Assembly: GCA_964576505.1 (NCBI GenBank)
Contig: CAZNVD010000005.1
Span: 1 to 46,704, forward strand
Length of the DNA: 46,704 bases
Reading direction: 5' to 3'
DNA from: an uncultured Methanosarcinales archaeon
GTDB lineage: Archaea; Nanobdellota; Nanobdellia; Woesearchaeales; WJKV01
The translations under genes and the position numbers were made by a program. This document shows, piece by piece, positions 12,001 through 23,374 of the stretch (positions are counted from its first letter, which is position 1; each line of letters begins with the position of its first letter). Under the pieces are notes generated by a model, which was not told the DNA's origin, made no database searches, and worked only from the letters and a program-made list of their open reading frames with translations.

Positions 12001-15000
12001 TTTAATGGTTTGTTCCTGTCTTCTTGTATCAACAGCACCTTCAAAAATACTGATCTTTTCAATAATTTTCAACAAATCATTCTTGGCTCCATCAGACAAC
12101 TCAACTTTTGCATACTTTGCAAGTAAATCAATTCGTCGCTTAATTGAATTAAGATCACTTTCACTCACGACTGTATCTTGTGCAACTGAAGTTTCAATTG
12201 GTTTAGTAGTAATTGCTTTCTTTTCTGTAACGCTTTTCTTTTTAATAAAAAAATCAAACCAAGCAACTACAGGTTCATAACCTGGTTGTTGCAATAATTC
12301 AGTGCGATCAAGCAAATAATACATGAAAGTCTCAGCAACAAACTCATTGAACAAGGTGTATTGTACAGAAATACGATCTTGTCTAGTCATTCCAAATTCG
12401 CCACCTACAAGCAAGCCTTGCTCCCGAATCAAATTGTACTGTTTTCTCAAAGACTCAATATCTACATCATTTTCTGAAAGGTCTCCTGAATCAACTAGAT
12501 GAATAATTCCATCACCCAATTTCATACCAAAGTAATAAGCTATAGATCGAGCAGTAGTATCATATAAATATGGATTTAAAAGTATTACTCCCTTTCCATA
12601 TTCAGCAATTCTATCATGAGTGTATTCAGCTAAATTAATCTCAGTAATTACAGAAGAACTAAGATACCAACGAGGAACAAGATCAAGCATGTGATCAATC
12701 TGCTTCAACACACTTCCAAAGTTTGGATTTGTTGCAAATCCTTTAGGAAGAACCACACTAATTCCAAATTCAGCAGCATGATCTTTCAATGCCTGTGCAG
12801 CAGAAATAATTTCATCTACGGAGTTGCTTTCAAGCCCCTCAACAACTTTCCATCTATTATATGAGTCATATTCTCGAATAGATACTAAACTTGACTGAAT
12901 TGCGAAAGGATTTCTAATTAAATACTTATCACCTATTTTTTCAACAGAATAACCAGCTCTAAATTGATCAAGCATTTCTGAAGTCAGATAAGGAATTTTT
13001 GCCAGCGTAGATTCTTTATCCCAAGCAAGACCACCAAGATTCTCATAATTACTATCAGCAGTAGCACCCTCTGCAGATGGAAGTATTTCATAACCACTGT
13101 TTTCTTTTTGGTTATTATTTTTTTTGTCATTATTGTCATTAGATTTATGAGTAAAGACAGAATAAATATCAGCGAATGCTGAACCAGTATACGAAATTAA
13201 TCCCTTATTTTCTTCTTGAGGAAGAGGCGTTTCAAATGTTTTCGCAGATACAACCAGATTTGACGATGCTCCACCAACCATCAACGACGAAATATAATCA
13301 GATTTTTCTAAATTTAGAGTTTGACCTTGAACAGTAATTCCACCAGGCTGAGAACCTCGAGTACCAGAAGAGAGAGAAGAAATGTAATTTGATTTAGATT
13401 GCTCCTTCTGGAAAACAGCACCAATTCCAGATGATTGAATTTCCGCTTGTGAATCACTAGCCTGAGTAATTTGATTTTGAAGAGATCCAATAGCTCGATC
13501 ATTCTTATTGTATTCATCAGTTAATCCAACACGTTGAACACCCAAAGCTCCCTGCATACTCTTTATATCACCAAGCAACTGAGTTTTCAATACCTGTGAT
13601 TGACCTTCACTTCCTGCTGAAAGATAATTATAATATTTATCATCTCCTTTTTCTTCTCCAAATGCACCAACAAAGTCATTCCTGCTAACAATATTATCTG
13701 CTTGAATATCTCCGAAGAGTTCAGTTCCTGCAGATATCTGCTTATCTGTGTTAAACAAAGACATTTTAATGCCCTCATTTTTCTGAGTCAACGATTCTTT
13801 GCGTTTACGCGCAGCATACTCAACATAAACGTCATCAATTTTTCCAGACAAAAATTGCAATTCCTTATCAGATAGACCTACTTTTACTCGAACAAGTACA
13901 TCACTTATAGTATCAAATGCCCTCTTCCTCTCATCCCCTGTAAGTTCTAGACGGTCCAATTCTGCATTTATTTCATCCTCAGTAAGATCACCCGCTAACA
14001 ATTTCTGCTTGAATGCAGACTTTGCTTCGTCAGCCGCAAGTTCAGCTCGAATGTCAGCTGCATTTCGCCAGGCAATATTAGCCCGATTCACAACAATATG
14101 AGGTAATCTTCCATATTCAGCTTCAAACTGGGCAGCAGGCACCAAAGATATGATAATTGTCGTTTTTCTATTCAATCGTTCACGATAAGTTGTATCAGGA
14201 GTAACTTGAGCAACATCAGAACCATCAATAATAAATGCAGCTGAGTCAGCAGGAGCATTAGAACTAATAACACCTGTTTGAGAAATACCATCATCAATAA
14301 AGCCAGAGGATTCAGCACTAATCACAGAAGAATCAAGAGCATTCTCTGCAGATCCTTGTCTTGATACGCCTGAAGTTTCTTTTACTAATTGATCTTTATT
14401 ACCAAATGTAGATACTTGATTGTCTTTAGAATCATCTTTGGTAGAAGGAGTTCCAAAGACTCCTGAACTTTCTTTTTCAGCCACCTGAGCACCTGTTATC
14501 AAAGATCCTTCGACCCTAGAGACCTGACCCTCAGGAACATTCAAAGATTCAATATTATCCTGAGAAGGCTTTGAGGTTGGTTTTGACAAAGTAATCAAAT
14601 CTTGTGCAGCAGTACTCTGATCTTCTTCAGTAATCTCACTTAATTTTTTGTTAATTGCACTTCGAAGATCGTTATTGGTTACTGTAATTATCATTTCCTG
14701 TGGAAGGTCAGTTTCTTCTTCAGAATTAGACGATCCACTGCCAGTACGAAGAGCTATTTGAATGTCACCTTCAGGAATAGGAAGCACCTCAACCGGATTC
14801 TGGGGATTAAACACAAGCATCTCAATAAAGTCAGGACCTACTTCAGTAATTGCAGGAAGCACTTGTTCTTCGCCTCCGCCGCCCCCACCTCCACCCCCTT
14901 CTTCATCATCAAGAACACGAAGTGGATCTACAACAGGTACAGCTGAAAATCTATTAGGAATAAGTGGAGTATGCCCTGGATCTCGCACACCATAGTGTAA

Positions 15001-17391
15001 AATAGGAGCAGGGCAAACTATCTGAGATGGGATGAGAATTTTATATGTGTATGACTTCCTAACCCACCTGGCGCAAGGAGGCGGACCACCTTCTACACAA
15101 GCAGCCACATAATAAACCCCCTTCGGAGGATTTCCCAACATTTTCGGGTCCCAAGGAATAGGATTTCCACTGGCAGCAGCATCCTGAAACATTTTCCAAT
15201 AAGTTTCCAGAGGGATCTCACTGCCAGCTGGATACGGAAGAGGTCCTGGGTCACAGAACCAAGGGCGATGAGGAAGTGGACAAACTGGTTTCTTTACAGA
15301 AACTCCTCTGGGTGGAGTTAGATCTGCATCATCAGAAACTCCTCTAATCACCGGCTTATTATCATCAGGACCCAATCTGTAAATTGGTGTGTTGTCTTGA
15401 GTCCATCCAACAGGATCAGCATCAATTCCGTCACCTAGTCTATAAATAGGAATTCCATCCTGAGTAAATCCTACCGGCTTATCATTTATTCCATCTGCCA
15501 ATTTAAAAATAGGAATACCAAGAACCCAATCAATAGGACCAATAAATCCAGCATTCAAATTGAACCCATCTGGACCAATAATCGCAGGAATTTCTCCATC
15601 ATTAGTGAGGATCACATTACAAAAATCAACTGTATTTGTAGTAAGGTAATTTATCTGACCTGGAGTCAACCATTGAGAAAGAGCTTCAGTAGAGACAATG
15701 GCTGGACATACCATTGGAATACTAACAGGACATTCTCCACCTGAATTGAAGCAGTGAATCAATGAATTAACATATGCATTGTAAAATGGAAAGGAATCAG
15801 CTTCCAGAGCTGAGGAAGGAATTCTTACACTGTTTCCACCTTGAGTCAAAGAAATAATGCCATCAGATACAGCGCCTATAGTAACAGGTTGTTCAGGACT
15901 GAATGAAACAGGTACACCATCAAATCCAGTTACTAAAACATCTCCAGTTGGAGATACATCGACATCAAGCAGGAGGTCTGTCTGTTGCCCACTATCAGTG
16001 ATAATCGTAAGAATTCCAGGCGTAGCACTTAAATCAACCAAGCTACCATCAGTAACAGGAATTTCTGATCCATCTGTTGAAGTGAGTATTACTCCAGTAG
16101 GACCTTGGATTGGAGCATCATTAACAAGTTGATTTTCAGGAATCTCAGTTGAAGTAGTCACACCACAAGATGATATACTATAGGTGCAATCAACATTACA
16201 AGACAAAGATCCACTGCTTAAACCACCAGCAATATCACCACAATTTAAACCTGCAAGATCATTACCATCACATTCTTCAGCACCATTTCTAATTCCATCA
16301 CCACATACGGCTACAGCTACAGGAGGCAATGAAACACCACTAAGCCAATCATTAACTAAATTCAATTCATCTGCAGATGGAAGACTAGGATTGCCAGCAA
16401 TAAATCCATTAATAAGAGGCACAGCTTCAGCCAAAGCATCAAAATTAGAAATCTCTTTAGCTTTCTCTTTAGTCAGTTCATTCATAGCATTAAGCCAGTT
16501 TTGCTTAAACACAGGCCCAAATCCAGCTTCATTAGCTACCAAAAGAACCCACAAAATAGAATTCACAAGCCATTGATGCATAGGATTTCCATACACATTC
16601 ATTGGGTGAACAGATTGAAATTCATTGAAAGCACCTTGATCAGCCAAAATTCCTTCAAATTCAACTTTATTCACAAGCGTGTCAAGCTGTACATTCAAAT
16701 TATTCAAATTATTAAGAATAGGAATTAATTTTTGCAGCACTGACTCAACAGAAGGAGGAGTAGAAGCACCACTTCTAAGCTCATCCTGTTTTTTTGCATT
16801 TACTTGATTCATAAAACTATCAATTTGAATATTATTGAGATTTCCATATTCTCCGAGTGGACCACCACTTTCAGAAAAATCACCCACAGCAGCAGAAGTA
16901 ATTGAAGATCCACCTTGAGTCGAACCTCCAATCGATCCCATCATTGCATCAAATTGAGCCTTATAATTCAACTGCATCTGCTGCCAATTTTGAAGGGCAC
17001 CAAACATACTAGGAAGAGCTGCTCCAACTACACCACCATTATTTCCATAATATTCTTGCTCAGCCTGAACAGCAATAGTAAGTTGTTGAATAAGATACAT
17101 TGCCACATTCCAAGCAAAATCAAACTGAGAACTAAATTTACCAATCGAACTCTGAACTGAATTAGTTCCTGGACCTGAAGTTGCCTGTGCACCAGTAATA
17201 CTTACTAAAGAAGAAGATTTAATTGGTTGGTTAGGTTGGTTAGGTTGGTTAGGTTGGTATGGTTGGGTGTAGATAGCCGAGGCATCTTTGTAAGAAATCC
17301 AGAACTGAGAAGAAGCGGCACTAACAGTACTACCAAGCATTAAGATAACTATGAAATATGCACCAAATTTCAAGTACAAATCACGCATCAT
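1..17391 (-). CDS. Giant secreted/surface protein, 3'-partial (at least 5,797 codons in the window; the C-terminus lies beyond position 1)
   Basis: Manual translation of the minus-strand frame from ATG-ATG at 17386-17391 found no in-frame stop down to position 1. The ORF track lists nothing in this frame: every listed minus ORF in 1-17391 ends at a coordinate equal to 2 mod 3. That fits one ORF left open at the window edge and therefore omitted. GAGG lies 6-7 nt upstream of the ATG. The N-terminus MMRDLYLKFGAYFIVILMLGSTVSA looks like a signal peptide or anchor. The translation reads as normal protein throughout. Confidence 0.9.
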   Translation of the reverse strand, partial: MMRDLYLKFGAYFIVILMLGSTVSAASSQFWISYKDASAIYTQPYQPNQPNQPNQPIKSSSLVSITGAQATSGPGTNSVQSSIGKFSSQFDFAWNVAMYLIQQLTIAVQAEQEYYGNNGGVVGAALPSMFGALQNWQQMQLNYKAQFDAMMGSIGGSTQGGSSITSAAVGDFSESGGPLGEYGNLNNIQIDSFMNQVNAKKQDELRSGASTPPSVESVLQKLIPILNNLNNLNVQLDTLVNKVEFEGILADQGAFNEFQSVHPMNVYGNPMHQWLVNSILWVLLVANEAGFGPVFKQNWLNAMNELTKEKAKEISNFDALAEAVPLINGFIAGNPSLPSADELNLVNDWLSGVSLPPVAVAVCGDGIRNGAEECDGNDLAGLNCGDIAGGLSSGSLSCNVDCTYSISSCGVTTSTEIPENQLVNDAPIQGPTGVILTSTDGSEIPVTDGSLVDLSATPGILTIITDSGQQTDLLLDVDVSPTGDVLVTGFDGVPVSFSPEQPVTIGAVSDGIISLTQGGNSVRIPSSALEADSFPFYNAYVNSLIHCFNSGGECPVSIPMVCPAIVSTEALSQWLTPGQINYLTTNTVDFCNVILTNDGEIPAIIGPDGFNLNAGFIGPIDWVLGIPIFKLADGINDKPVGFTQDGIPIYRLGDGIDADPVGWTQDNTPIYRLGPDDNKPVIRGVSDDADLTPPRGVSVKKPVCPLPHRPWFCDPGPLPYPAGSEIPLETYWKMFQDAAASGNPIPWDPKMLGNPPKGVYYVAACVEGGPPPCARWVRKSYTYKILIPSQIVCPAPILHYGVRDPGHTPLIPNRFSAVPVVDPLRVLDDEEGGGGGGGGGEEQVLPAITEVGPDFIEMLVFNPQNPVEVLPIPEGDIQIALRTGSGSSNSEEETDLPQEMIITVTNNDLRSAINKKLSEITEEDQSTAAQDLITLSKPTSKPSQDNIESLNVPEGQVSRVEGSLITGAQVAEKESSGVFGTPSTKDDSKDNQVSTFGNKDQLVKETSGVSRQGSAENALDSSVISAESSGFIDDGISQTGVISSNAPADSAAFIIDGSDVAQVTPDTTYRERLNRKTTIIISLVPAAQFEAEYGRLPHIVVNRANIAWRNAADIRAELAADEAKSAFKQKLLAGDLTEDEINAELDRLELTGDERKRAFDTISDVLVRVKVGLSDKELQFLSGKIDDVYVEYAARKRKESLTQKNEGIKMSLFNTDKQISAGTELFGDIQADNIVSRNDFVGAFGEEKGDDKYYNYLSAGSEGQSQVLKTQLLGDIKSMQGALGVQRVGLTDEYNKNDRAIGSLQNQITQASDSQAEIQSSGIGAVFQKEQSKSNYISSLSSGTRGSQPGGITVQGQTLNLEKSDYISSLMVGGASSNLVVSAKTFETPLPQEENKGLISYTGSAFADIYSVFTHKSNDNNDKKNNNQKENSGYEILPSAEGATADSNYENLGGLAWDKESTLAKIPYLTSEMLDQFRAGYSVEKIGDKYLIRNPFAIQSSLVSIREYDSYNRWKVVEGLESNSVDEIISAAQALKDHAAEFGISVVLPKGFATNPNFGSVLKQIDHMLDLVPRWYLSSSVITEINLAEYTHDRIAEYGKGVILLNPYLYDTTARSIAYYFGMKLGDGIIHLVDSGDLSENDVDIESLRKQYNLIREQGLLVGGEFGMTRQDRISVQYTLFNEFVAETFMYYLLDRTELLQQPGYEPVVAWFDFFIKKKSVTEKKAITTKPIETSVAQDTVVSESDLNSIKRRIDLLAKYAKVELSDGAKNDLLKIIEKISIFEGAVDTRRQEQTIKALLIQRKPERKFVSEGVEFTYRVFENIVSVADKNIITSTKIEEAVRLSTLRMLSEQDLSDSETDSLRTLTSVGEKEVSVLLALESLNADTITSVTRFLRDDASDSDREIFGYFISDLLPRLTVSERGLLDSLTTELSDEISRASESGAVLSELGHGGLPENTFTAYNELNKQPESIKRIILSISKAGEYRRITDERKIFRTYMSPSVDVGEYFILDAVEGAYSEIPLSFELFDKYLTYLNDGVPVALSKDVYAALEKARTLSVKSPKLKVPEPKVEPTVPAIPIAISADKLASDKRISGLIAPEGKGIDVLKSTPGEIADMIEDGTISDDYLAKLAEYFTKLTEAGYGILPDSSIIYYGDDARGFVITPDKTRVASLADYGGELSRAKAAEFSDSYGDVYDDSYLALLDAIDARISALSASRSGDYVRRIALLEELDDDIFATYSRGAESLPSINRIAGSIDRVYAEQNPVAPQPPADALSLLNDVLYSTIINPVSDTIGAIADFGRAASESKQPGVPGDPDTEFAMLNQLPLGCTFDGTYGIPSRQLSANAIDSLNAINPAVGTTKDLSDRNKVISTVTSKDLETVSNRKVVPLSGGAIADDVVSAEGRITEIESVLDSIGAVGVSESANDIGSAENKMSEIEYYLDLLEGVGQIPENQIQEVGDSGLQYDCVYNVPAVPAIGSLDTFDNYEVPDSSQFPHPAPYPLDDGLDTGSFLAPSTVDLVMAFSEFHEKGVNPYQTVHITDVFALDQDPPEPSNTPGTFETSLPQLPIPGLSAELMGPFNPEEIQSKESFYQLASQPSVWIVALPDPALDTIEVVEGAVNAPGGGGGGGGGDEFKTTDLWYEHMRGVGIGEATRESGVKAVEELIGKIQFDWVGTPKEIHEGSYNWVLAERWGTWLRTAKGKLAGGGGGVCTGGGAANICVNQMIQPGQDKNEESHRQHNIWVNGQTRRITEYNLGLIIKDLRPRLGLPPTKFCEESDKHNELAEGYSSIQRLQNLILRIDQSDEFAEKLSKSDEYQEELDAIGQKERENQERIELEQYKAANGKLKDFDLDSVKSDYNRFKEATSQMEKIEKGVESEVALGKMTREDAQRALEGSSYQDYLKEAQELGSRFAGKDKTGKDIELKPEDVYARDKPALDKMRKEAINKLNDLAAKSNYQLAQEKWQREEDSIGEELSNLQKRINERFPGTTLEGRERKEAVKLAITKIAEKSNIKPPYENLDYKAFLEMHNAVKELNKCFGGKPKGIADLLNFQLRVYDFYTRAMIESRENLPGMYNNLEQYNYYAQGSESRLDSETKKSTNPEEYAEKANVVEQKLMDRFNLMADMIDKNNEIMKIYDGWNSAIGGQVFGDFTIASQPMDGTGKEHVKKHSDNLINFFASIKLSSANIKNVHGETPVNIRSSPDNFKQFLRKHAEYLADSSNLHQLFIRSLAEHLQWSGENNVALFGLIISPPTVGWDWSGVNAAGIATPSGPAAQAAYLAENDCPPLPIPEKPFGATGPTQKKVGETSVEVDYTDHGSVAEFSPVEKEPDAGTYKQEKPVEERLDDTRKKNNCEQIEDTIANQQAFNDCKSKIEILPDPVTGKFQMHDTNKYTGPGSATFVGFIDPDSKNPSRPNLGQFLAALAGVGCKRPGILYCQSPAGSGKFAAIDAGSGTDLATGGAVSPEIKSALDEIKKLEQEKRIEDNKDIKNNIDDLFFDPERSLAERQQQLYQFSNDLNELWVRYSNAAKAETAEERAKLAAEADAFANQVASELGIPVETVTGFLNLIGRTEPPGIADITPHNVMKYLIDQRNTASLQLYSDERQVKGEIANEAAKQTQAEKEKLVGTPGGASKIAGVQALTKEGKTEEAKQAIAKLAKDLKIDETLLNEVILNVKDPTPEKIIAYIQGKKDDPFNTPENLKALQDALSSKDGLKEPLESQLRDANKELAISSDWLKKEMDRAQKLGDTLYAERLQSRLTTINEIASKIDAINQDATKTGRSLTDSEASELKLLQSRLDEETFKNINTEQILAEQQRILESNLKERTVNENIQKDLQSKKASLESDLKGSQENLDFYTKLYGSNRNQEQQQLIIDIEADIEEYQKKLSEFDKSLKDVNSKLALSDETIKEEIAKINVEITSLQEKNAEVADKNFQLNDQIKTIDDQIKMVDQKSAALSKEYQDFARKSEYDLWNDVKKSNAYNPAAFAIFGARASGLPPDEQALAKQITAVYNSYQTTQNLEDLEKASKLAEQYDAQFGTSDAIYQDKSVLQEFYAAAFKSSFGSSAENDALVTTLLESKWKQDVSTNLEQSKLELDFLKETKMNLADTGLLGGPSADLIAALTKAEKRYTDGLLVNAEKSGEPDVYSKIQNILLDSLKRQSELGLLTEDQKQRIDALLSAQNPELKDLPKDQTFSMIEWIQDNVLSNVKNIKDAAAPVAEIIYGADGKSDRAQTVDRIFGQDTSISAKKGFAVAVGDYNKIFAKLMQLMVGPRNENVLAFSWPPGQAKFKTFWYISEGGMNIFETAVAALDLQDKETGTMVGSMLRAQFGPLLKSYFPLYHGDTEYNAFLRNMQTYQGIGQKEAEWADKMTALTERLNAGLDIEQYSKEMAEIKRAYVQYGSDLLIKLDLIKQNNNIESMLHSGSLDDAGTLYYRALSAVLQSYMQQTLVLTGVVSEDALRRIDLALALIKQRKQDLLGVGSVVLYETPEDRAAERAKNQGKVLELQEWEKTLKSYRDVVERNAKQYRAASTVDYLAQLRARFEALRSAFRGERIQFDAMSQLYREFVSINIMSLEGGLELFSDMVGTYLGFGRQYSTEINRQDVLSMGKYIVTVPELYEQHKAGFQSYLETVLMITAFGKKEYYDGLKQRIEFLKKEVEKAYSHGQYGYGGSVLKELTQLQSEFSKLQPEIMQDIFFIAQFTKKDFIFTDPKTGEIRTMLSIPEFVGLFGKDSPFGGEGSIVDNLPPSLKKVLFGEQFGRELTGRTDFTTAYIGSASGELNRLAALGFDINRYEAEVKKINGFLDDDGSFFSREQLSVLRDAVKLIGFLYDKGDSWSSNLYKTAEKNMVVRYEEELKEIVKEAETYRDNAGIVFSGLKGVRDFLRGTVFGDLIYRGLDYAADSMFGANEPDVFELAAQMDRIAKQSLDEISRLKQEFPDHLQSADNDVDFVSLQNKQSTLYLYFGVEKFDNYLGNIAANAGANLLEFMPVLLGSIGPQGIAGLGKAFTGLGNLGKTLLGFEVKAGATVATQEVAKLTFAQALERGLLTETTLLRGASILKEASTFAYVDVSKMVDSGEITSLGGFAEAFAEHTAHLAIQFALVQGYTGLTGLSGPALKGLTGTSGSIARGAFYTANFLGENIVFVGSGAALGTGEFTMTALLDSIVFLGGLKIKHAVEGSLAKSDLDRAVEKAGKEYDQFVSGKISEADYVKKINELYEGSFSESGVPTKPGLEAGAAARLAKAVEDIRTNYGDGAGGLTKEGLTKLKVEKLKYEQEVSEVLGALFEPRGEALVGFDLVDSFKQDLQLRLSESSKQFDLFIAKELYRLEPTEGNKYELDKLTKEAAELKTAVQFEFYKSNKELADAKLKELDDIIADPEKTPAERLDARLEKEELLDGLKQATDESFARLDKFGSTIKAQLSAELSPEKISERYDASKEKATAAADKIISDIKSGKVVSPEDIKTVENSLNLKGAESEAFRKAVTEKDVGTIESAKGKIEKGYESRKEAKVAEALTAEKVAVDKRIEESAKDIDAARELAGKVAKGEDIPLKEFTDVLGPDIGKWAKEKYEEKRFTKVFDAIGKERKSKEEDVGFAKKFSEDLGTEAVARKEASATAAAAETVAKEHFKEKVTEVLVEKAGEIAKKGGFTEAEAKTVEELAKGIPEGDYSKLPDVKKALERIEAEKKALEEEAKKLEETPEEIVAAAETMRAEKAEVDERVEETTKKEETAKKLKEKIAKGEEITFEEFVAVLGGERGTTAKAAYEKAKTDTSVKITSDKAKIVADVDAKI
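1870..2420 (-). other. Gly/Ala/Leu-rich hydrophobic segments within the giant protein (about aa 4990-5175)
   Basis: Translation gives FMPVLLGSIGPQGIAGLGKAFTGLGNLGKTLLGF ... GYTGLTGLSGPALKGLTGTSGSIARGAFYTANFLGENIVFVGSGAALGTGEFTMTALLDSIVFLGGL. These small-xxx-small patterns contrast with the charged flanking sequence. Confidence 0.5.
9490..9516 (-). repeat. Second Gly9 tract (NAP-GGGGGGGGG-DEF), about aa 2626-2634
   Basis: Nine consecutive in-frame glycine codons; plus strand reads tcc acc gcc acc acc gcc tcc tcc acc. Confidence 0.95.
14872..14898 (-). repeat. Gly9 tract flanked by acidic residues (DDEE-GGGGGGGGG-EEQ), about aa 832-840
   Basis: Nine consecutive in-frame glycine codons; plus strand reads gcc tcc gcc gcc ccc acc tcc acc ccc. 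Confidence 0.95.
15341..15520 (-). repeat. Three short tandem peptide repeats of the type G(I/T)PI(F/Y)(K/R)L(A/G)DGI(N/D)x(K/D)PVG(F/W)TQD
   Basis: Translation gives GIPIFKLADGINDKPVGFTQD / GIPIYRLGDGIDADPVGWTQD / NTPIYRLGPDDNKPVIRG. Confidence 0.7.
16165..16305 (-). other. Cys-rich module CGDGIRNGAEECDGNDLAGLNCGDIAGGLSSGSLSCNVDCTYSISSC (about aa 363-409 of the giant protein)
   Basis: The C-G-D-G-x5-E-E-C-D-G-N pattern resembles the cysteine-rich repeat family of extracellular proteins (Myxococcus-type CGNG..GEECDDGN repeat). Only a single copy was seen. Confidence 0.55.
17224..17265 (-). repeat. In-frame 9-nt tandem repeat (ttggttagg x3 perfect, plus degenerate flanking copies) encoding QPYQPNQPNQPNQP
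   Basis: Read directly: ttggttagg at 17227-17235, 17236-17244 and 17245-17253, followed by ttggtatgg. Confidence 0.9.
17317..17391 (-). other. N-terminal signal peptide / membrane anchor of the giant protein (MMRDLYLKFGAYFIVILMLGSTVSA)
   Basis: Charged N-region (RD..K), a hydrophobic core and a small-residue VSA motif. It is nearly identical to the N-terminus of the 849-aa ORF at 20707-20781. Confidence 0.75.
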
Positions 17392-17470
17392 TCATCCTCT
17401 TTTTTCAAGTATTTACATTAATACTTTCTACAGACAACTAATTTACCAACCGATTTTTAAAAAACAATAG

Positions 17471-17486
17471 AATATATAAACATATC
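17471..17486 (-). promoter_or_regulatory. TATA-box core (minus strand GATATGTTTATATATT) about 80-90 nt upstream of the giant ORF start
   Basis: The 15-nt core atatataaacatatc occurs three times (17472-17486, 18096-18110, 20860-20874), each upstream of a gene in this cluster. A GAGG Shine-Dalgarno-like motif lies at 17396-17399. Confidence 0.5.
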
Positions 17487-17664
17487 GATTCCAGAAAACA
17501 AAAAATCGAGCACATGAAAAATTACAATGTGGTCGAAAAAAGCAAGTAAAAAACAACAAACAAAAATTTAACATAACACAAAGATTTTAACCTGAATCAC
17601 CACTATCAAAAAGCAAAATTACAATCCAATACAATTTCTAGGCGACAACCACATCATTGAGCCA

Positions 17665-18075
17665 TTAAGCAAGCGAAAACACATCTTTTAATGGTCCTTG
17701 ACAATTTGCAAGCTCAGCAGTCAATGTCCTCAGTAAATCAGGATTAAAACTTCCTTTAGAATATGTACATTTCATCCCCACATTCTCAAAAAGTTGGTGT
17801 GCAGCATCAGGTTCACTTGGATCCAACCCAATAATTTTTTTCTCAACAACACAGCCATTCATCACAGTATAAGCAACAGTTGCAGTAGTGATTCTATTCT
17901 CAAAATAGACAGGTTTACATTTTTGAGCCCTAGCAAGGAAGCACATCTCATCCGAACAATTTACACTCTGAGAATCAAGATAATAAAAGAATCCCCCTAC
18001 AACAACCATTAAAATAACACCAGCTAGTATCCAATAGTTCAAATTAATTTTTGAAGATATTTTCTTTCTAACCAC
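17665..18075 (-). CDS. Small Cys-rich membrane-anchored protein, paralog 1 (136 aa, GTG start)
   Basis: ORF track. Basic N-terminus, then one TM helix (YWILAGVILMVVVGGFFYYL), then a six-Cys ectodomain. It aligns along its whole length with ORF 22267-22668. A TATA box lies about 25 nt upstream. Confidence 0.8.
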   Translation of the reverse strand: MVRKKISSKINLNYWILAGVILMVVVGGFFYYLDSQSVNCSDEMCFLARAQKCKPVYFENRITTATVAYTVMNGCVVEKKIIGLDPSEPDAAHQLFENVGMKCTYSKGSFNPDLLRTLTAELANCQGPLKDVFSLA

Positions 18076-18086
18076 ATATCAAAAAA

Positions 18087-18186
18087 GGCAAAAACATATA
18101 TAAACATATCTCTTCTGTAAAAGCACATTATTTACTTTTAGAAATCAGAATATCCTCGATAATTAATAATAAAAAATAATAATCAC
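18087..18186. repeat. Intergenic promoter block, copy A (about 100 bp, repeated at 20851-20953)
   Basis: Hand alignment: ..aacatatataaacatatctcttctgtaaaagcacattatttacttttagaaatcagaatatcctcgataattaataataaaaaa.. against ..aacaatatataaacatatctcttctagaaagaaagcttttttacttctaaaaaaaatagaatctcctcgataattaataataaaaaaa.. Confidence 0.85.
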
Positions 18187-18231
18187 CAATTAGAAAAAAC
18201 AAACTAATTTAATCAATAATTTATCATGAGA

Positions 18232-20781
18232 TCAAACATCACTAACCACAGCATCACCACTTAATCCAACAGCTTTTGTAACACTCTTCGCCTTTGTTAC
18301 AACAGATCTCCAGAATCTCTGCCACCACGATAATGGTTTAACTTCTTTAGTCTCTGCATACTCAACAACTTTCTGTCCAATCTCCTCAGATAATTTCTCA
18401 GGAAGTTTTTCTTCCACAGAATCTCGAAGCTGAGGAGGAAGAGCAGCTGTCACAGCCCTAGCCCGCATAACATTCTTTCCTATCACAGTAGCTTTTCTGT
18501 CAAAGTCAGGCTCTTCAGAATCAAAAGAAAGTGCATCCTCTTCTACGACTTCAGGAGTAAGCCCAGAAGTAACAGCTTTACTTATCTTAGTACCAACCTC
18601 ATCTCCAGCATAACTTCGGACACCATCTTTTAATTTAGCTTTTCTTTCAACAGGAATGTCAGCTTTATCAATTGCATCATCATACGAGCTTATAACAAAC
18701 ATTACATCATCACCATATTCAAGAATAGAAGGTCCATCAACAGTTCCAGATTCATCTACAAGAGTAAGTGCTGATGAATCAATCAGATTTGAATCATCAG
18801 CAAAAGCGGTAGCAATTACATAATCAACCTCATCATCAATTGCAGAAACAACTTTTCTTCCTTCAGATTCATCCAATTTAGCAAGAAGACGCTTCTTAAA
18901 GAGCTCAGCACGAGTCAAAGAATCACCAAATTCAGTTGCAAATTTCTCATCTTTGTAATCAATACGTCTATGTCCTGTTCCAACATAATCGGAAATTTTT
19001 CTACTAACAGCAGCTGAAAAGTCATCCTCAACACTGGAATCGATAGTACCAAGTTCCCTCGATACTCTGTTAAGACCATGATGATAATCAACTAAAGGTC
19101 CAATTTTTTTATCAATATCAGAATAATCTCCCCTTTTTGCCCTTTCAAGCACTGCATCATCATCCAGATCAGTTAAAATATCATCAACATCATGAGTTAC
19201 ACGAGTATTAATGAGATCAGAATAAACACCAGCATGAAGTTCATCCAGTTTACCATCATAACTTTCTCGGAATCCTCCCTCTAAAACTTTCTTTGTTTTT
19301 CGAAGTCCTCCATCCTCAACTTTCTGTGAAGTATCAAGAACATAACCACGTACATCATTGCTCAAATCAATTAAACGAGGAATTTCAGCAGGATCTTTAG
19401 CACTTGCATCAACTAATTTTTTGAGTTCACCTCTTTTAGAACCAAACACTTTATCAGCAATATGCGATCCCAAGACAGCATTACTCAATACATTCAATCC
19501 AGAGTCATCTCCTAACTGTGTTATTCTTGCATTTTTGTAACGAGTTTTCATTGAATCAATATCTCGAGCTACCTTCACAATATCATCAGGAGTAAAATCA
19601 TCACCAAGCGCACCAAGTCTATTAGCCAAAGTATTTTCAATTTCATCTAAATAAATCCCATCTACAACCTCAGCCGCAATACGAGTAGCTCCATTGCAGC
19701 CAGAATCCTCTTCAGCAACAATACCTCGATCTATCGAAGCTCCTTTTGCAAGGAAATTTCCAATACGATTTCTACTCGATTCATCAGCATCGCCCTTCAC
19801 TATTTTTGATACTTCAGTCCTAATATTATCTTCAGCAGCAACACGAGAAAACTCAGCCTTCACTGTTTCAGCAATCTTTTCATCTCTGATACCGAGCACA
19901 TCAGCTCTCGAGACTCCTTCCTTTCGCAGCCCAACCTGAAGATCAAGTGCTTTGTTGTTTAATGCAACCAACCTTTCTTTTGCCTTCTCACTATCTGCAG
20001 ATTTAGTCACAATTGAACGCAAATCAGCACTAACTGTAGCTTTTTCAAACTCTCTGTTAACTTGATTAATTGCAAACGCAGTAGGAGCATCAGTAACTTT
20101 TTCTTCAATTTTCGGCCTCAATGTTCCAATCAAATCTTTTCGTGACATACCAGCAGGTCCCATTGATTTTAGACCTACTTCAGCACGAGGCTTTGATTCA
20201 GCAACAGGAACAATTTCATTAATAACTCGTTGTATTTCGGCAAGATCTTGAAGTTCATCCTCAGCCCCACCAGCATAGGGACTTGCATCCTCACCTGCTC
20301 GGAGAAGCACTGAAACACGCCATTCAAGTTCTGAGAGTTTTCCAATAACATTATACAATGTTTCAGATTCATCAACACCTTCAACCAAAACCATTGACTC
20401 AGCACCCAATCCAGCACCATCTTCCAAACGTTCAATTCGTGATTCAGCACTACGAATTCGAGATACTAATGAGTCAATTCGGTAAGAATAGTCATCAGCT
20501 CCAGAAACTCCAAATTGACCAAGATCACTATATGCACCATAAAGATCATACATTTCATTATCAGTCAGTCCACGTTGAGATGCCTGATCACGAGTAACCA
20601 AAGCAGCAGCCGAAGAAGGTACAATACAGTCAATACCACCACCCAGAGATTTCTGGATTGCAAGTGCAGTTATTCGTCTCCCACTTGTCGTATCCAAAGA
20701 AGTAGTTGCACTAACAGTACTACCAAGCATCAATAAAACTAGGAAAGATACACCAATTTTTAAAAACAAATCACTCATCAT
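18232..20781 (-). CDS. 849-aa acidic secreted protein sharing the giant protein's signal peptide
   Basis: ORF track. N-terminus MMSDLFLKIGVSFLVLLMLGSTVSA. A 23-nt run, gcactaacagtactaccaagcat, is identical at 20708-20730 and 17318-17340. GAGG lies at 20786-20789. No other TM segment is evident. The C-terminus is basic and Trp-rich (SWWQRFWRSVVTKAKSVTKAVG). Confidence 0.85.
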   Translation of the reverse strand: MMSDLFLKIGVSFLVLLMLGSTVSATTSLDTTSGRRITALAIQKSLGGGIDCIVPSSAAALVTRDQASQRGLTDNEMYDLYGAYSDLGQFGVSGADDYSYRIDSLVSRIRSAESRIERLEDGAGLGAESMVLVEGVDESETLYNVIGKLSELEWRVSVLLRAGEDASPYAGGAEDELQDLAEIQRVINEIVPVAESKPRAEVGLKSMGPAGMSRKDLIGTLRPKIEEKVTDAPTAFAINQVNREFEKATVSADLRSIVTKSADSEKAKERLVALNNKALDLQVGLRKEGVSRADVLGIRDEKIAETVKAEFSRVAAEDNIRTEVSKIVKGDADESSRNRIGNFLAKGASIDRGIVAEEDSGCNGATRIAAEVVDGIYLDEIENTLANRLGALGDDFTPDDIVKVARDIDSMKTRYKNARITQLGDDSGLNVLSNAVLGSHIADKVFGSKRGELKKLVDASAKDPAEIPRLIDLSNDVRGYVLDTSQKVEDGGLRKTKKVLEGGFRESYDGKLDELHAGVYSDLINTRVTHDVDDILTDLDDDAVLERAKRGDYSDIDKKIGPLVDYHHGLNRVSRELGTIDSSVEDDFSAAVSRKISDYVGTGHRRIDYKDEKFATEFGDSLTRAELFKKRLLAKLDESEGRKVVSAIDDEVDYVIATAFADDSNLIDSSALTLVDESGTVDGPSILEYGDDVMFVISSYDDAIDKADIPVERKAKLKDGVRSYAGDEVGTKISKAVTSGLTPEVVEEDALSFDSEEPDFDRKATVIGKNVMRARAVTAALPPQLRDSVEEKLPEKLSEEIGQKVVEYAETKEVKPLSWWQRFWRSVVTKAKSVTKAVGLSGDAVVSDV

Positions 20782-20850
20782 TTAACCTCATTTTTTCAAA
20801 AAAAATGAACTTTCAGTAAACAATACTAAGCATTTCACATACTGCAAAAA

Positions 20851-20953
20851 AGCAAAACAATATATAAACATATCTCTTCTAGAAAGAAAGCTTTTTTACT
20901 TCTAAAAAAAATAGAATCTCCTCGATAATTAATAATAAAAAAACATTACACCA
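20851..20953. repeat. Intergenic promoter block, copy B (includes the TATA core at 20859-20874)
   Basis: See copy A. Here the block lies about 80 nt upstream of the 849-aa ORF start. Confidence 0.85.
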
Positions 20954-20969
20954 TTTAAGCACTTACACC

Positions 20970-21003
20970 TTAAACCAGATCAATTAAAATCCTTTACAAC
21001 ACT
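20970..21003 (-). pseudogene. Decayed 3'-end remnant of a third small Cys-rich protein gene
   Basis: Minus strand reads ..tgt taa agg att tta att gat ctg gtt taa. The intact paralog reads ..tgt aaa ggg act ttg aag act ttg att gat ctg gtt taa (22267-22308). The terminal IDLV-stop and the flanking acac are the same, with an internal deletion and a premature stop. Confidence 0.6.
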
Positions 21004-21046
21004 TATCAACAAAGAAAGAAAATGGCTTTATTAATTTATTTGATCA

Positions 21047-21079
21047 GGTGACCACAAAAAGATACAAATGTAGTCACCC
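21047..21079 (+). repeat. Direct repeat, left copy (ggtgaccacaaaaagatacaaatgtagtcaccc)
   Basis: It matches 22052-22083 (ggtgaccacaaaaagagataaatgtagtcaac) with 2 mismatches over the first 30 nt. The right copy contains the last codons and stop of the Fic gene (GDHKKR*). An extra atgtagtcaccca copy lies at 21098-21110, so the two copies flank the TATA-like atttaaata. Confidence 0.85.
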
Positions 21080-21121
21080 ATAACCAAAATATTTAAATAT
21101 GTAGTCACCCAAATAAAGAAT

Positions 21122-22072
21122 ATGCACGTAGAAAAAAGAAAATTAAACAAAAAAACCAAATATTATCTAGCTCATTCATACAGAGAAGGTTCTAAAATCC
21201 ACAAATTCAGAAAATATCTTGGTCAAGATATCAAAACAGAGAAATTAAACGAAAGAAAAGAAATAGCAGAAAAACTCATCCTAGAGGAAATCCACAAATA
21301 CAACATCATCAAAGATCCACTAGATTTTGAACTTTCACATAAAGAAATAGAATCAATTAAAAAGCAGGAATTAGAAATTCCATTGAAAATAGCCCACCTA
21401 TCTGAGCAGGATTGGAAATTATTCTCAGAAATATTCACATATCATACCAATGCTATCGAAGGCAGCAAACTAAATCAAAAGGAAGTAAGAAATATACTGG
21501 AAAAGGACAAGTGGCCAGATAAATCAAAAGAAGATATTGCCGAAGCATATGGTGTAGACGAAGCAATAAGATTTATCAGAGGAGCAAAAGAGCACATTTC
21601 AATAGAACTTATTCAAAAAATCCACAAGATTGTATTCAAAAATTCAAAACCATTTGCTGGAAAGCTGAGAAAAAAAGGAGAAGATGTAGTTGTCATAGAT
21701 AACAATGGAAATATTGTACACGAAGGAGCTCCTCAACCAAGAATCAAGCATCTACTCAATGAGTTAATAGATTGGTACAAAAAGAACAAGTCAAAGTATC
21801 CAGCCCTCATCCTGGGAGCAGTAATTCATAATCAATTTGAGAACATTCATCCATTCAGAGACGGCAATGGCAGAGTTGGCAGAATACTATTAAACAACAT
21901 TCTACTAAAGCACAATTTGCCTCCGATCAACATAGACTTTGTAAACAGATTAGAATATTATGAATCATTAAAATCCTACGAGCTAAACAAAGATCTAAAG
22001 CCAACAATAAATTTATACTTGAAAGAATATCAAAATTTGAAGAAAAAATTAGGTGACCACAAAAAGAGATAA
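21122..22072 (+). CDS. fic: Fic-domain protein (AMPylase family) carrying an N-terminal inhibitory-helix motif
   Basis: Canonical HxFx(D/E)GNGRxxR motif present as HPFRDGNGRVGR. An upstream (S/T)xxxE(G/N) motif is present as TNAIEG, the class II auto-inhibited arrangement. Confidence 0.9.
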   Translation: MHVEKRKLNKKTKYYLAHSYREGSKIHKFRKYLGQDIKTEKLNERKEIAEKLILEEIHKYNIIKDPLDFELSHKEIESIKKQELEIPLKIAHLSEQDWKLFSEIFTYHTNAIEGSKLNQKEVRNILEKDKWPDKSKEDIAEAYGVDEAIRFIRGAKEHISIELIQKIHKIVFKNSKPFAGKLRKKGEDVVVIDNNGNIVHEGAPQPRIKHLLNELIDWYKKNKSKYPALILGAVIHNQFENIHPFRDGNGRVGRILLNNILLKHNLPPINIDFVNRLEYYESLKSYELNKDLKPTINLYLKEYQNLKKKLGDHKKR

Positions 22073-22083
22073 ATGTAGTCAAC
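22052..22083 (+). repeat. Direct repeat, right copy, overlapping the Fic stop codon
   Basis: See 21047-21079. Confidence 0.85.
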
Positions 22084-22189
22084 GAAATTAGGGGACCCGC
22101 CTACCACGATCTGACGACCATGGCTTGCCGGCGGTTCCAATATGTTAATCCTAATTTCGAGGACCCAGAAAATCCTTTGGGATTTTCTG
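22083..22189. other. GC-rich structured island (candidate small ncRNA, or a bidirectional terminator between convergent genes)
   Basis: 33 of 50 nt are G+C across 22091-22140, in an AT-rich background. A perfect 10-bp helix pairs cgaaattagg (22083-22092) with cctaatttcg (22150-22159). It is stacked on an 8/9 helix pairing ggacccgcc (22093-22101) with ggcggttcc (22130-22138). A separate perfect 10-bp hairpin, cagaaaatcc-tttg-ggattttctg, lies at 22166-22189. Confidence 0.45.
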
Positions 22190-22266
22190 TGTCACCCACT
22201 ATTCAACCAAAACCTCATCAGTAATTCTTAGTTTTATCCACCTCTAAAAGAAAACATATTTACACA

Positions 22267-22668
22267 TTAAACCAGATCAATCAAAGTCTTCAAAGTCCCT
22301 TTACAAGTAGATATCCCACCTGTAAACGACGACAACAAGGCACTGTCAAAGCTTCCATCATCAAAACTACACTCCATCGCTGATCCCTCAAACATCACTT
22401 TAATATTCTGCGGCTCTGAACCATCAAGAGACAAGATCTGCTTTTCTACAGCACAATTATCGAGCACAGTATAACCAACCGTAGCAGTAGCAATCACATT
22501 CTCAAAATAAGCAGACTTACAATCTTTAGCACGATTAATAAAACAGGTTTCATCAGTGCAAGTAACACTTCTAAAAGCTGAATATGATAATAATCCAACT
22601 AAAACAATCACTCCAAATAATCCTAAATACACATATACAGAAAACAAAGAATTTTTTCGGCTTTTCAC
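22267..22668 (-). CDS. Small Cys-rich membrane-anchored protein, paralog 2 (133 aa, GTG start)
   Basis: ORF track. It has the same architecture and the same six conserved Cys as 17665-18075 (VTCTDETCFINRAKDCKSAYFEN.. against VNCSDEMCFLARAQKCKPVYFEN..). Confidence 0.8.
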   Translation of the reverse strand: MKSRKNSLFSVYVYLGLFGVIVLVGLLSYSAFRSVTCTDETCFINRAKDCKSAYFENVIATATVGYTVLDNCAVEKQILSLDGSEPQNIKVMFEGSAMECSFDDGSFDSALLSSFTGGISTCKGTLKTLIDLV

Positions 22669-23105: not shown

Positions 23106-23374
23106 CTATGCTCCCTTTTTCGTTCTTGTTTAACTTCTTCCCAAGCCTCTCTCCAATCAAAGGTACGCATAGTAGAAATAAGCTCCAATATCTTATCCTC
23201 GGGAGATTTAATGACCGACTTTCTCAATATGATATCACCACTAGAAGTATGTGTGACAACAAAAGTATCATCCTCTTTCAATGCATCCTCATCTCTGATT
23301 TTCTTAGGAATAGTGATTTGCCCTTTTTTTCCCATTTTGACTTTGTCCGTGTAGAACATATGTTTGTGCTCCAT
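23102..23374 (-). CDS. vapB: AbrB/SpoVT/MazE-type antitoxin (VapB-like)
   Basis: GQITIPKKIRDEDALKEDDTFVV is a typical swapped-hairpin AbrB motif. It is translationally coupled to the PIN gene. A TATA box (ctttataaat on the minus strand) lies about 25-30 nt upstream. Confidence 0.8.
   Translation of the reverse strand: MEHKHMFYTDKVKMGKKGQITIPKKIRDEDALKEDDTFVVTHTSSGDIILRKSVIKSPEDKILELISTMRTFDWREAWEEVKQERKREHR

What the first reader, a model, noticed from the sequence alone, without database searches (positions are those of the whole stretch)
17317..22668. Repeated module of a small Cys-rich membrane protein plus a large secreted protein, sharing one leader and signal-peptide cassette
**Seen in sequence**
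- ORFs 17665-18075 and 22267-22668 are clear full-length paralogs. Each has one N-terminal TM helix and six conserved Cys (C-x-D-E-x-C-F .. C-K .. C .. C .. C), and both use a GTG start.
- A decayed third copy sits at about 20970-21003.
- The giant ORF and the 849-aa ORF share:
  - the N-terminus MM(R/S)DL(Y/F)LK(F/I)G..LMLGSTVSA;
  - a 23-nt identical run (17318-17340 = 20708-20730);
  - the same GAGG spacing;
  - the same 15-nt TATA core about 80-90 nt upstream.
- In two cases a small-Cys gene, or its remnant, lies directly upstream of a large secreted gene.

**Inference**
- The small protein may be a dedicated partner of these large exported proteins, for example an anchor, chaperone or maturation factor.
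- The locus appears to evolve by cassette duplication and recombination.
- I do not recognise the small Cys-rich family.
Basis: partly seen in the sequence, partly recalled or inferred. Interest (0 to 1): 0.72.

Follow-up and report, generated by a model that had tools for sequence, protein, structure and literature searches.

The report
Duplicated cysteine-rich membrane proteins, DPANN archaeon
Two copies of a small, undescribed membrane-anchored protein sit beside two large secreted proteins in a tiny symbiotic-type archaeon; the shared promoter and export-signal pieces come from local DNA shuffling, and comparison genomes show no fixed partnership between the small and large proteins.

Summary
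The two small ORFs are paralogs (46% identity, E 4e-39). The 849-aa and >5,797-aa ORFs share only a ribosome-binding site and a Sec-type signal peptide, in a 98-nt patch at 83% identity that contains a 23-nt exact run. An exact 15-nt TATA core occurs three times, not two; the third copy drives small-Cys gene 1.

The window is from a Woesearchaeota-type DPANN archaeon. The small protein belongs to a large unannotated family: 402 clusters at 50% identity. Its plan is a membrane anchor (TM helix or lipobox) followed by a ~100-aa extracellular domain with three disulfides. It has no match in Pfam, NCBIfam, PDB or BFVD, although the AlphaFold model is confident (pLDDT 92).

The region upstream of the 849-aa gene is a mosaic: a small-Cys 3' remnant, a copy of the small-Cys1 promoter, and the giant gene's leader.

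The "dedicated partner of giant proteins" idea is not supported. Only 4 of about 31 non-redundant homolog loci have an ORF of at least 1,500 aa within 3 kb. Those ORFs are unrelated to each other and to the window's proteins, and their placement varies. One lipoprotein-type subfamily does keep a conserved upstream secreted ~350-aa neighbour. Function remains unknown. Interest is moderate to low.

The parts
1..17391 (-). Giant ORF. It is incomplete, longer than 5,797 aa, and runs off the window start. It has an N-terminal Sec-type signal peptide, MMRDLYLKFGAYFIVILMLGSTVSA|A.
   Evidence: Translation. No Pfam hit. No internal repeats.
17308..17405 (-). Leader patch, copy 1. It holds the A-run, GAGG, a 4-nt spacer, ATGATG and signal-peptide codons 1-28 of the giant ORF.
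   Evidence: Repeat D1 is 83% identical over 98 nt.
17472..17486 (-). BRE/TATA core GATATGTTTATATAT of the giant gene, 81 nt upstream of the ATG. This implies a 5' UTR of about 55-60 nt.
17665..18075 (-). Small Cys-rich membrane protein, copy 1 (136 aa, GTG start). It has a TM helix at about residues 12-34 and a six-Cys ectodomain at residues 38-136.
   Evidence: AlphaFold model with pLDDT 92.3. Family search.
18082..18176 (-). Intergenic and promoter block, copy A. It drives small-Cys1. TTTATATA lies at 18104-18097, 22 nt from the GTG start, so the mRNA is probably leaderless.
   Evidence: (D4, D8).
18232..20781 (-). 849-aa acidic secreted protein with signal peptide MMSDLFLKIGVSFLVLLMLGSTVSA|T. 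It is an orphan with no TM anchor.
   Evidence: No Pfam or NCBIfam hit. No homolog found.
20698..20795 (-). Leader patch, copy 2: ribosome-binding site plus signal-peptide codons of the 849-aa ORF.
   Evidence: (D1).
20846..20942 (-). Intergenic and promoter block, copy B, a copy of the small-Cys1 promoter with its TATA core at 20860-20874. About 50 nt of non-matching sequence follows. That stretch includes a 16-codon remnant ORF, from GTG 20838 to a TGA that overlaps GAGG.
   Evidence: (96.7% and 91.4% pieces).
20963..21003 (-). Remnant of a small-Cys 3' end (last ~12 codons, stop codon and 7 nt beyond). It resembles copy 2.
   Evidence: (D5: 29 nt at 90% to 22260-22288) and the alignment.
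21043..21076 (+). A 34-nt direct repeat that matches the 3' end of the Fic ORF. This is the upstream copy.
   Evidence: (D9, 91%).
21122..22072 (+). Fic/DOC-family gene (316 aa, motif HPFRDGNGRVGR). It lies between small-Cys2 and the 849-aa gene's promoter.
   Evidence: PF02661, E 5e-20.
22048..22081 (+). A 34-nt direct repeat, downstream copy. It overlaps the Fic stop codon.
22267..22668 (-). Small Cys-rich membrane protein, copy 2 (133 aa, GTG start). TTTATATA lies at 22698-22691, 22 nt upstream of the GTG, the same spacing as in copy 1.
22704..23374 (-). VapBC-type toxin-antitoxin pair directly upstream of small-Cys2. The PIN-domain gene is at 22704-23105 and the AbrB/MazE-type gene at 23102-23374.

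Best explanation
**What the locus is**
- It is a variable island of surface-protein and toxin-antitoxin genes in a Woesearchaeota-type DPANN archaeon.

**The small proteins**
- The two small genes are functional paralogs of a widespread, uncurated family of DPANN proteins.
- A short cytoplasmic N-terminus and one TM helix tether a ~100-aa alpha/beta domain to the outer face of the membrane. In other members a lipobox does the tethering.
- Three sequential disulfides stabilise the domain: C1-C2, C3-C4 and C5-C6.
- Each gene is transcribed on its own as a leaderless mRNA, from a TATA box 22 nt upstream of the GTG start.

**The large proteins**
- The 849-aa protein and the giant protein are unrelated Sec-exported proteins.
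- Their similarity is confined to the ribosome-binding site plus signal peptide. That patch was copied from one gene to the other by recombination or gene conversion.
- The 849-aa gene is driven by a duplicated small-Cys promoter block from which the small-Cys coding sequence is missing.

**Consequence**
- The small gene lying next to a large secreted gene in this window is best explained by local duplication, deletion and insertion among short repeated blocks. An obligate functional pairing is not needed to explain it.

**Inferred, not shown**
- The ectodomain is most likely a surface-exposed binding or structural module whose partner differs between lineages.
For: **Taxon**
- The window encodes FttA/aCPSF1, a proteasome subunit, FEN1, Trm5 and GyrB.
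- The best FttA matches, at 58-63% identity, are Woesearchaeota and Nanoarchaeia MAGs.

**Family**
- The profile search found 402 clusters with E<=1e-3 and 255 with E<=1e-10. The domain is always at the C-terminus.
- Six Cys are present in 159 of 166 domains. The segment before the domain has a median length of 78 aa and ranges from 2 to 250 aa.
- Some members have a lipobox in place of the TM helix.
- Cys are lost in pairs: four sequences lack both C1 and C2, and one lacks both C3 and C4.
- The AlphaFold model has pLDDT 92.3 and pTM 0.77.
- Family-bearing contigs carry archaeal genes: MCM, TBP, TFB and ribosomal protein S3Ae.

**Mosaic structure**
- document the repeated blocks.
- The two large proteins are similar only over residues 1-28.

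**Independent transcription units**
- Three TATA cores are present.
- The TATA-to-GTG spacing is 22 nt for both small genes.
- Oligo-T runs follow each stop codon.

**No conserved synteny with giant ORFs**
-.
Against: **Residual signal for a link to giant ORFs**
- Four of about 31 homolog loci have an ORF of at least 1,500 aa within 3 kb, including the locus of the closest homolog, P0003. None of 25 FttA-anchored control loci does.
- A weak real association therefore cannot be excluded. The control is a single conserved housekeeping neighbourhood and is not a fair background.

**Evidence for working with a secreted protein**
- One subfamily has a conserved secreted upstream partner.

**Limits of the data**
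- No expression data are available. The leaderless transcripts and the terminators are read from the sequence alone.
- The order of the recombination events is inferred.
- The 849-aa gene could have been inserted between duplicated promoter blocks instead of arising by deletion.
Confidence: 0.6

Rival explanations
1. The small Cys-rich protein is a dedicated membrane anchor, chaperone or maturation factor for the adjacent large exported proteins, and the module of small gene plus large gene is the functional unit that gets duplicated.
For: - In the window, small-Cys1 lies 273 nt upstream of the giant gene, and a remnant lies upstream of the 849-aa gene.
- All three genes carry the same TATA core, which would allow co-regulation.
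- ORFs of at least 1,500 aa lie within 3 kb of homologs in L035, L037, L067 and L070/L072.
- A lipobox subfamily is always preceded by a secreted ~350-aa protein.
Against: - About 27 of 31 non-redundant loci have no large ORF nearby.
- The nearby giant ORFs show no BLASTP similarity to the window's proteins, and only one weak 101-aa match among themselves. Two carry HEAT/TPR repeats, which are usually cytoplasmic. Other genes separate them from the small gene.
- Immediate neighbours are not enriched for hydrophobic N-termini: 9 of 27, against 25-29% background.
- Most homologs carry a cytoplasmic N-terminal domain that plays no obvious part in such a role.
- The remnant is better explained as a duplicated 3' end flanking the Fic insertion.
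Confidence: 0.17
2. The shared promoter, leader and signal-peptide cassette is a functional expression site. Recombination swaps different mature-protein bodies behind one expression and export cassette to vary the surface, as in bacterial variable surface protein systems.
For: - The similarity stops abruptly at the signal-peptide cleavage site, while the bodies are unrelated.
- The region is a mosaic of 30-100-nt repeated blocks.
- DPANN giant surface proteins are strain-variable (PMC10266531).
Against: - Only two genes carry the cassette in 46.7 kb.
- No silent cassettes, invertible repeats or recombinase were found in the window.
- The patch is only 83% identical, which suggests an old single event and not ongoing exchange.
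Confidence: 0.1
3. The family is a bitopic sensor or signal transducer. The extracellular Cys domain binds a ligand, and the cytoplasmic N-terminal helical and Lys-rich region relays the signal. The window copies would be truncated decoy or ligand-binding-only versions.
For: - Most homologs have a cytoplasmic N-terminal segment of 40-250 aa.
- That segment often contains a recurring ~40-aa helical motif, for example KGYS..I...L...G, followed by Lys-rich linkers.
Against: - The N-terminal region has no recognisable signalling or DNA-binding domain in Pfam.
- Lipobox members and the window copies lack it entirely.
- No conserved neighbouring regulator was seen.
Confidence: 0.1

Closest known systems
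Giant Sec-exported surface proteins of DPANN archaea, for example the SPEARE-type proteins of Nanohaloarchaeota (PMC6642349, PMC10266531)
   Same: - The window's giant ORF is longer than 5,797 aa.
- It starts with a Sec-type signal peptide.
- It lies in a variable region of a DPANN genome.
   Different: - No domain was recognised, including Ig-like and VirB4.
- The taxon is different (Woesearchaeota).
- No small Cys-rich neighbour is mentioned in the passages of PMC10266531 that were read. This is a partial reading only.
Lineage-specific hypothetical membrane protein families of DPANN and other archaea (PMC9258230, PMC8204110). Only titles and abstracts were seen.
   Same: The small Cys family is a conserved, lineage-restricted protein family with no functional annotation.
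   Different: I could not check whether this particular family is among those catalogued. The domain plan, disulfide pattern and predicted structure given here come from this analysis only.
Variable surface (lipo)protein loci that share a conserved 5' leader and signal peptide, such as Mycoplasma vsp/vlp-type families (from general knowledge, not tested)
   Same: Unrelated mature proteins sit behind a nearly identical ribosome-binding site and signal-peptide segment, in a repeat-rich locus.
   Different: - There are only two genes.
- No recombinase, invertible element or silent cassette was found.
- Identity is only 83%.
- The promoters are archaeal.
Small membrane-tethered extracytoplasmic domains such as PepSY or BamE-like alpha/beta modules (a resemblance of topology only, from memory)
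   Same: An N-terminal TM or lipid anchor is followed by a compact module of about 100 aa in which helices pack on an antiparallel sheet.
   Different: - Foldseek found no match in PDB or BFVD (best E 0.26 and 0.29).
- No Pfam hit was found.
- Three conserved disulfides are specific to this family.

Membership tests
Any curated protein family (Pfam-A 2025, NCBIfam 20.0) for the small Cys-rich protein | A significant HMM match of the ~100-aa Cys domain | tested here: not met
   - The two window copies gave 0 Pfam families.
- Among 43 family members there were only scattered hits above 1e-4, all to TM or low-complexity regions.
- NCBIfam gave 0 hits for 5 members.
Any solved or viral predicted fold | A Foldseek or profile match to PDB or BFVD | tested here: not met
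   - PDB Foldseek: best E 0.26, TM at most 0.34.
- BFVD: best E 0.29.
- PDB profile searches: best E 0.0083 with the 2-sequence profile and 0.38 with the 40-sequence profile.
- AlphaFold DB was not available.
Sec (class I) signal peptide, for the giant and 849-aa proteins | A charged n-region, a hydrophobic h-region of about 15 aa, and small residues at -3 and -1 of the cleavage site | tested here: met
   By inspection only, with no predictor available. The sequences are MMRDLYLK / FGAYFIVILMLGSTV / VSA|A and MMSDLFLK / IGVSFLVLLMLGSTV / VSA|T.
Type IV pilin-like (class III signal peptide) proteins, for the small protein | A short charged N-terminus directly followed by a [KR][GA]|hydrophobic prepilin-peptidase site | tested here: not met
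   - The window copies have no such motif.
- Homologs carry 40-250 aa before the TM helix, some of it folded, or a lipobox.
- One locus (L066) lies near PilB/PilC-like genes, but this is a single case.
Archaeal lipobox proteins | [LVI][ASTVI][GAS]C at the end of the signal peptide | tested here: not met
   - The window copies have a plain TM helix.
- A subfamily does have the motif: LIAGC, VVSGC, TVGC, VAGC.
Operon or dedicated-partner module with large secreted proteins | Conserved adjacency of family members to large signal-peptide proteins across related genomes | tested here: not met
   - 4 of about 31 non-redundant loci have an ORF of at least 1,500 aa within 3 kb. These ORFs are unrelated and are not adjacent to the small gene.
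- No family member lies near FttA in 25 related Woesearchaeota loci.
- A proper background was not available, so a weak enrichment remains possible.
Archaeal leaderless transcription units, for the small genes | A TATA box about 22-27 nt upstream of the start codon, with no Shine-Dalgarno sequence | tested here: met
   - The end of TTTATATA lies 22 nt before the GTG start in both copies, and there is no GAGG.
- This was read from the sequence only. No transcription start sites were mapped.
Fic/DOC family, for the inserted gene at 21122-22072 | The Fic motif HxFx(D/E)GNGRxxR and a match to PF02661 | tested here: met
   PF02661 at E 5.4e-20. The motif HPFRDGNGRVGR is present.

The most novel reading that the evidence does not exclude
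The ~100-aa three-disulfide ectodomain is a previously undescribed fold. It would serve DPANN archaea as a membrane-proximal docking module for secreted surface proteins. In this lineage the partners would be the giant and 849-aa proteins. In the lipobox subfamily the partner would be the conserved ~350-aa protein carrying the DPxNFWANWDMAELKK motif. If so, it would give a handle on how these wall-less episymbionts hold very large adhesins on a single membrane.
Probability: 0.12. Interest if true: 0.6.

Novelty: new variant of a known kind. Interest (0 to 1): 0.36.

Why it matters
DPANN archaea depend on cell-surface contact with their hosts, yet most of their surface proteome is unannotated.

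This analysis defines a widespread extracellular domain family: at least 400 clusters at 50% identity, a fixed six-Cys pattern, a confident predicted structure, and no match in Pfam, NCBIfam, PDB or BFVD. It could be curated as a new family and tested.

The analysis also shows that the striking local "module" is a product of recombination among short blocks. This is a caution against reading function from a single locus. The conserved two-gene pair in the lipobox subfamily is the better starting point for experiments on function.

Tried and rejected
**Searches that found nothing useful**
- The word-indexed homolog search with small-Cys1 returned only the query itself.
- The same search with a 43-sequence alignment returned only 22 proteins. 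Lys-rich words probably saturated the candidate list.
- The same search with the 849-aa protein returned nothing.
- With the two paralogs as query, it found no relative in GTDB genomes.
- An exact-sequence contig look-up of small-Cys1 found nothing.
- The first AlphaFold run, with only 2 sequences, was poor (pLDDT 65) and was not used.
- Foldseek against PDB and BFVD found nothing.
- PDB profile searches found nothing. The 2lfc hit at E 0.008 vanished with the deeper profile.
- Rfam found nothing in the window.
- The 5' UTR hairpins are weak and not shared between the two large genes.

**Ideas considered and rejected**
- *The 849-aa protein is a paralog or fragment of the giant.* There is no similarity beyond residue 28.
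- *The Cys domain recurs inside the giant protein.* The HMM hits only the two small ORFs in the window.
- *The small proteins are pilins.* See the membership test.
- *The position near FttA is conserved.* This was not seen in 25 related loci.
- *Neighbours are enriched for secreted proteins.* The rate is 33% against 25-29% background.

Full report
**1. What is in the sequence**

All the genes of interest except Fic lie on the minus strand. Reading 5' to 3' along that strand, the order is:
- a VapBC pair (23374-22704);
- small-Cys2 (22668-22267);
- a Fic gene on the plus strand (21122-22072);
- a ~41-nt remnant of a small-Cys 3' end (21003-20963);
- a promoter block;
- the 849-aa ORF (20781-18232);
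- a second copy of the promoter block;
- small-Cys1 (18075-17665);
- a third promoter;
- a giant ORF that starts at 17391 and runs off the window, so it is longer than 5,797 aa.

The two small proteins are 46% identical over 122 aa (E 4e-39). Each has a short basic N-terminus, one hydrophobic helix and six aligned cysteines.

The two large proteins are similar only over residues 1-28 (68% identity, E 2e-7), with nothing beyond that. At the DNA level this is a 98-nt patch, 17308-17405 = 20698-20795, at 83% identity. It contains a 23-nt exact run that shuffled sequence never reproduces. Both genes have GAGG, a 4-nt spacer, then ATGATG. The peptide reads as an ordinary Sec signal: a charged n-region, a hydrophobic core, and VSA at the cleavage site.

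**2.

The 15-mer GATATGTTTATATAT occurs exactly three times (17472-86, 18096-110, 20860-74). Only 0.24 matches are expected even when two mismatches are allowed. The extra copy is the promoter of small-Cys1.

The end of TTTATATA lies 22 nt from the GTG start in both small genes, and neither has a Shine-Dalgarno sequence. From the sequence alone, this is the layout of archaeal leaderless transcripts.

The large genes have their TATA cores 79-81 nt upstream of the ATG, which gives 5' UTRs of about 55-60 nt with a GAGG.

Oligo-T runs follow each stop codon. The four genes therefore look like separate transcription units and not an operon. This is inference; no expression data exist.

**3. The region upstream of the 849-aa gene is a mosaic**

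- 20942-20913 and 20880-20846 match 18176-18147 and 18116-18082 at 96.7% and 91.4%. This is the intergenic and promoter block of small-Cys1.
- About 50 nt of non-matching sequence follows.
- Then comes the leader patch shared with the giant gene (alignment).
- Where small-Cys1 has its GTG start, the 849-aa copy keeps ATGTG followed by a 16-codon ORF. The TGA of that ORF overlaps the GAGG.

The 849-aa gene is therefore driven by a duplicated small-Cys promoter fused to a copy of the giant gene's ribosome-binding site and signal peptide.

The "third copy" is about 41 nt long and resembles the 3' end of copy 2, not copy 1. The Fic gene lies between that remnant and the intact copy 2. Fic is itself flanked by a 34-nt direct repeat at 91% identity that matches its own 3' end. 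The remnant may therefore be a duplicated 3' end left by the insertion of the Fic segment, and not a decayed third gene. I could not settle the order of events.

**4. Organism**

The right half of the window encodes FttA/aCPSF1, a proteasome subunit, FEN1, Trm5/TYW2, GyrB and a DRG-type GTPase. G+C is about 36%.

The best FttA matches (58-63% identity) are MAGs labelled Woesearchaeota, Nanoarchaeia or Nanoarchaeota. Several are third-party assemblies titled "uncultured Methanosarcinales", which is probably a labelling artefact. The window therefore comes from a Woesearchaeota-type DPANN archaeon with no close relative among the GTDB representative genomes.

**5. The small protein family**

- An exhaustive profile search with the two paralogs found 402 clusters (50%-identity representatives) at E<=1e-3 and 255 at E<=1e-10. 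Members are 104-352 aa long, and the domain is always C-terminal.
- In 166 retrieved members, 159 have six Cys in the domain. The segment before the domain has a median length of 78 aa and ranges from 2 to 250 aa.
- That N-terminal segment is Lys-rich. It often starts with a recurring ~40-aa helical motif, which the window copies lack.
- A subfamily replaces the TM helix with a lipobox-type signal such as LIAGC or VVSGC. The constant feature is therefore tethering of the Cys domain to the outer face of the membrane.
- Cysteines are lost in pairs: four sequences lack C1 and C2 together, and one lacks C3 and C4 together. This points to sequential disulfides C1-C2, C3-C4 and C5-C6.
- With a 23-sequence alignment, AlphaFold2 gives a confident model (pLDDT 92.3, pTM 0.77). 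It has a TM helix at residues 12-34 and a compact domain with a beta-alpha-beta-beta-beta-alpha-beta core followed by two short C-terminal helices.
- Nothing matches the family:
  - Pfam and NCBIfam;
  - PDB sequence profiles;
  - Foldseek against PDB (best E 0.26) and BFVD (best E 0.29).
- AlphaFold DB was not available, so novelty of the fold is not established.
- Contigs that carry the family are archaeal, encoding MCM, TBP, TFB, ribosomal protein S3Ae and eIF2-gamma.

**6. Test of the partner hypothesis**

I examined these loci:
- 5 contigs that encode homologs;
- 38 metagenome loci;
- 5 more loci for the closest homologs.

After merging near-identical members, about 31 loci remain.

*Large ORFs nearby.*
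- An ORF of at least 1,500 aa lies within 3 kb in four loci:
  - L035, 1,808 aa, open-ended;
  - L037, 2,813 aa, open-ended;
  - L067, 1,543 aa;
  - L070/L072, 3,062 aa, next to P0003, the closest homolog.
- These large ORFs show no BLASTP similarity to the window's giant or 849-aa proteins. Among themselves there is only one weak match, a 101-aa stretch shared by the L035 and L037 ORFs.
- Two of them carry HEAT/TPR repeats.
- They are separated from the small gene by other genes and lie in varying positions.
- The 839-868-aa neighbours look like leucyl-tRNA synthetase; the one with Pfam data, the 868-aa gene in L006, carries class-I tRNA-synthetase domains.

*Other neighbours.*
- P0003 and P0009, both close homologs, share DUF655 and eIF2-gamma neighbours. 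Only P0003 has a giant ORF nearby.
- Immediate neighbours are not enriched for hydrophobic N-termini: 9 of 27, against 25-29% in controls.
- None of 25 FttA-anchored Woesearchaeota loci contains a family member or an ORF of at least 1,500 aa.

*Assessment.*
- Four large ORFs in about 190 kb of family flanks, against none in about 350 kb of control flanks, is suggestive. If the four events are pooled, the chance that all fall in the family set is about 0.015. This is my own arithmetic from the and outputs.
- The control is one conserved housekeeping neighbourhood, so I treat the result as inconclusive.

*A positive result.* In 14 loci of the lipobox subfamily, the gene is immediately preceded, on the same strand, by a conserved secreted Cys-containing protein of about 310-390 aa with the motif DPxNFWANWDMAELKK. 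That protein has no homolog in the window and no convincing Pfam match.

**7. Most likely explanation**

The small proteins are members of a DPANN-wide family of membrane-tethered, disulfide-stabilised extracellular modules.

In this genome they lie in a fast-changing island together with VapBC pairs, a Fic gene, an orphan secreted protein and a giant surface protein. Giant Sec-exported surface proteins in variable regions are already known from DPANN archaea (PMC10266531).

The repeated "module" reflects duplication, deletion and patch-wise recombination among blocks of 30-100 nt. Function is not shown. The conserved operon in one subfamily makes binding of a secreted partner the most testable idea.

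**8. Verdict**

The functional-partner part is not.

The family is undescribed, but it is typical of the large unannotated surface proteome of DPANN archaea, so interest is moderate to low.

Noticed in passing
window 21043-21117 and 22048-22091: The Fic gene (21122-22072, + strand) is bracketed by a 34-nt direct repeat at 91% identity that matches its own 3' end. The motif AAATGTAGTCACCC occurs twice in tandem just upstream of the Fic start and once at its end. This could be a trace of cassette insertion or tandem duplication, or it could be an operator.
   Followed up: partly
window 22704-23374 and 25845-26545: Two VapBC-type toxin-antitoxin pairs (AbrB/MazE antitoxin plus PIN toxin) lie within 4 kb of each other, next to the Fic gene. 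This gives the region the look of a mobile or variable island. The second pair was judged from ORF layout and sequence only and was not scanned against Pfam.
   Followed up: partly
L002 7719-8642, L048 8905-9846, L044 8747-9799, L056/L058/L061 and others: A conserved secreted Cys-containing protein of about 310-390 aa (motif DPxNFWANWDMAELKK) lies immediately upstream of lipobox-type members of the small Cys family in 14 loci. It has no convincing Pfam match. This looks like a conserved two-gene unit.
   Followed up: partly
homologs P0004, P0011, P0014, P0015, P0017, P0025, P0152-P0160 (N-termini): A recurring ~40-aa cytoplasmic helical motif, for example LKKYIKAALKQGSTKEEIKETLLKKSYPKQIINKLL, precedes the TM helix in many family members. 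It is often followed by long Lys/Pro-rich linkers. It has no Pfam match and is absent from the window copies.
   Followed up: no
window about 16170-16320 (giant ORF residues ~360-410): The giant protein contains a Cys-rich stretch, VCGDGIRNGAEECDGNDLAGLNCGD...C...C. From memory it resembles the CxxCGDG...EECDDGN repeats of large bacterial and DPANN surface proteins. Pfam reported nothing at E<=0.01.
   Followed up: no
window 25130-25774 (-): A 214-aa ORF has a lipobox-like N-terminus (LVVLSAC) and several Cys residues. It has no Pfam or NCBIfam match. It is another orphan surface protein in the same island.
   Followed up: partly
L066 11928-16314: One family member (L066 9611-10324, 238 aa) lies about 1.6 kb from a cluster of PilC-like (T2SSF) and PilB-like (T2SSE) genes. 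This was seen only once.
   Followed up: no
window 17216-17269: Just after the giant protein's signal peptide, a 9-nt tandem repeat (GGTTGGTTA on the + strand) encodes (PNQ)n, as in QPYQPNQPNQPNQP. This could be a slippage-prone linker.
   Followed up: no
L064 1917-2700: Two family members (161 aa and 148 aa) lie next to each other on opposite strands in another metagenome contig. Local paralog pairs of this family are therefore not unique to the window.
   Followed up: no
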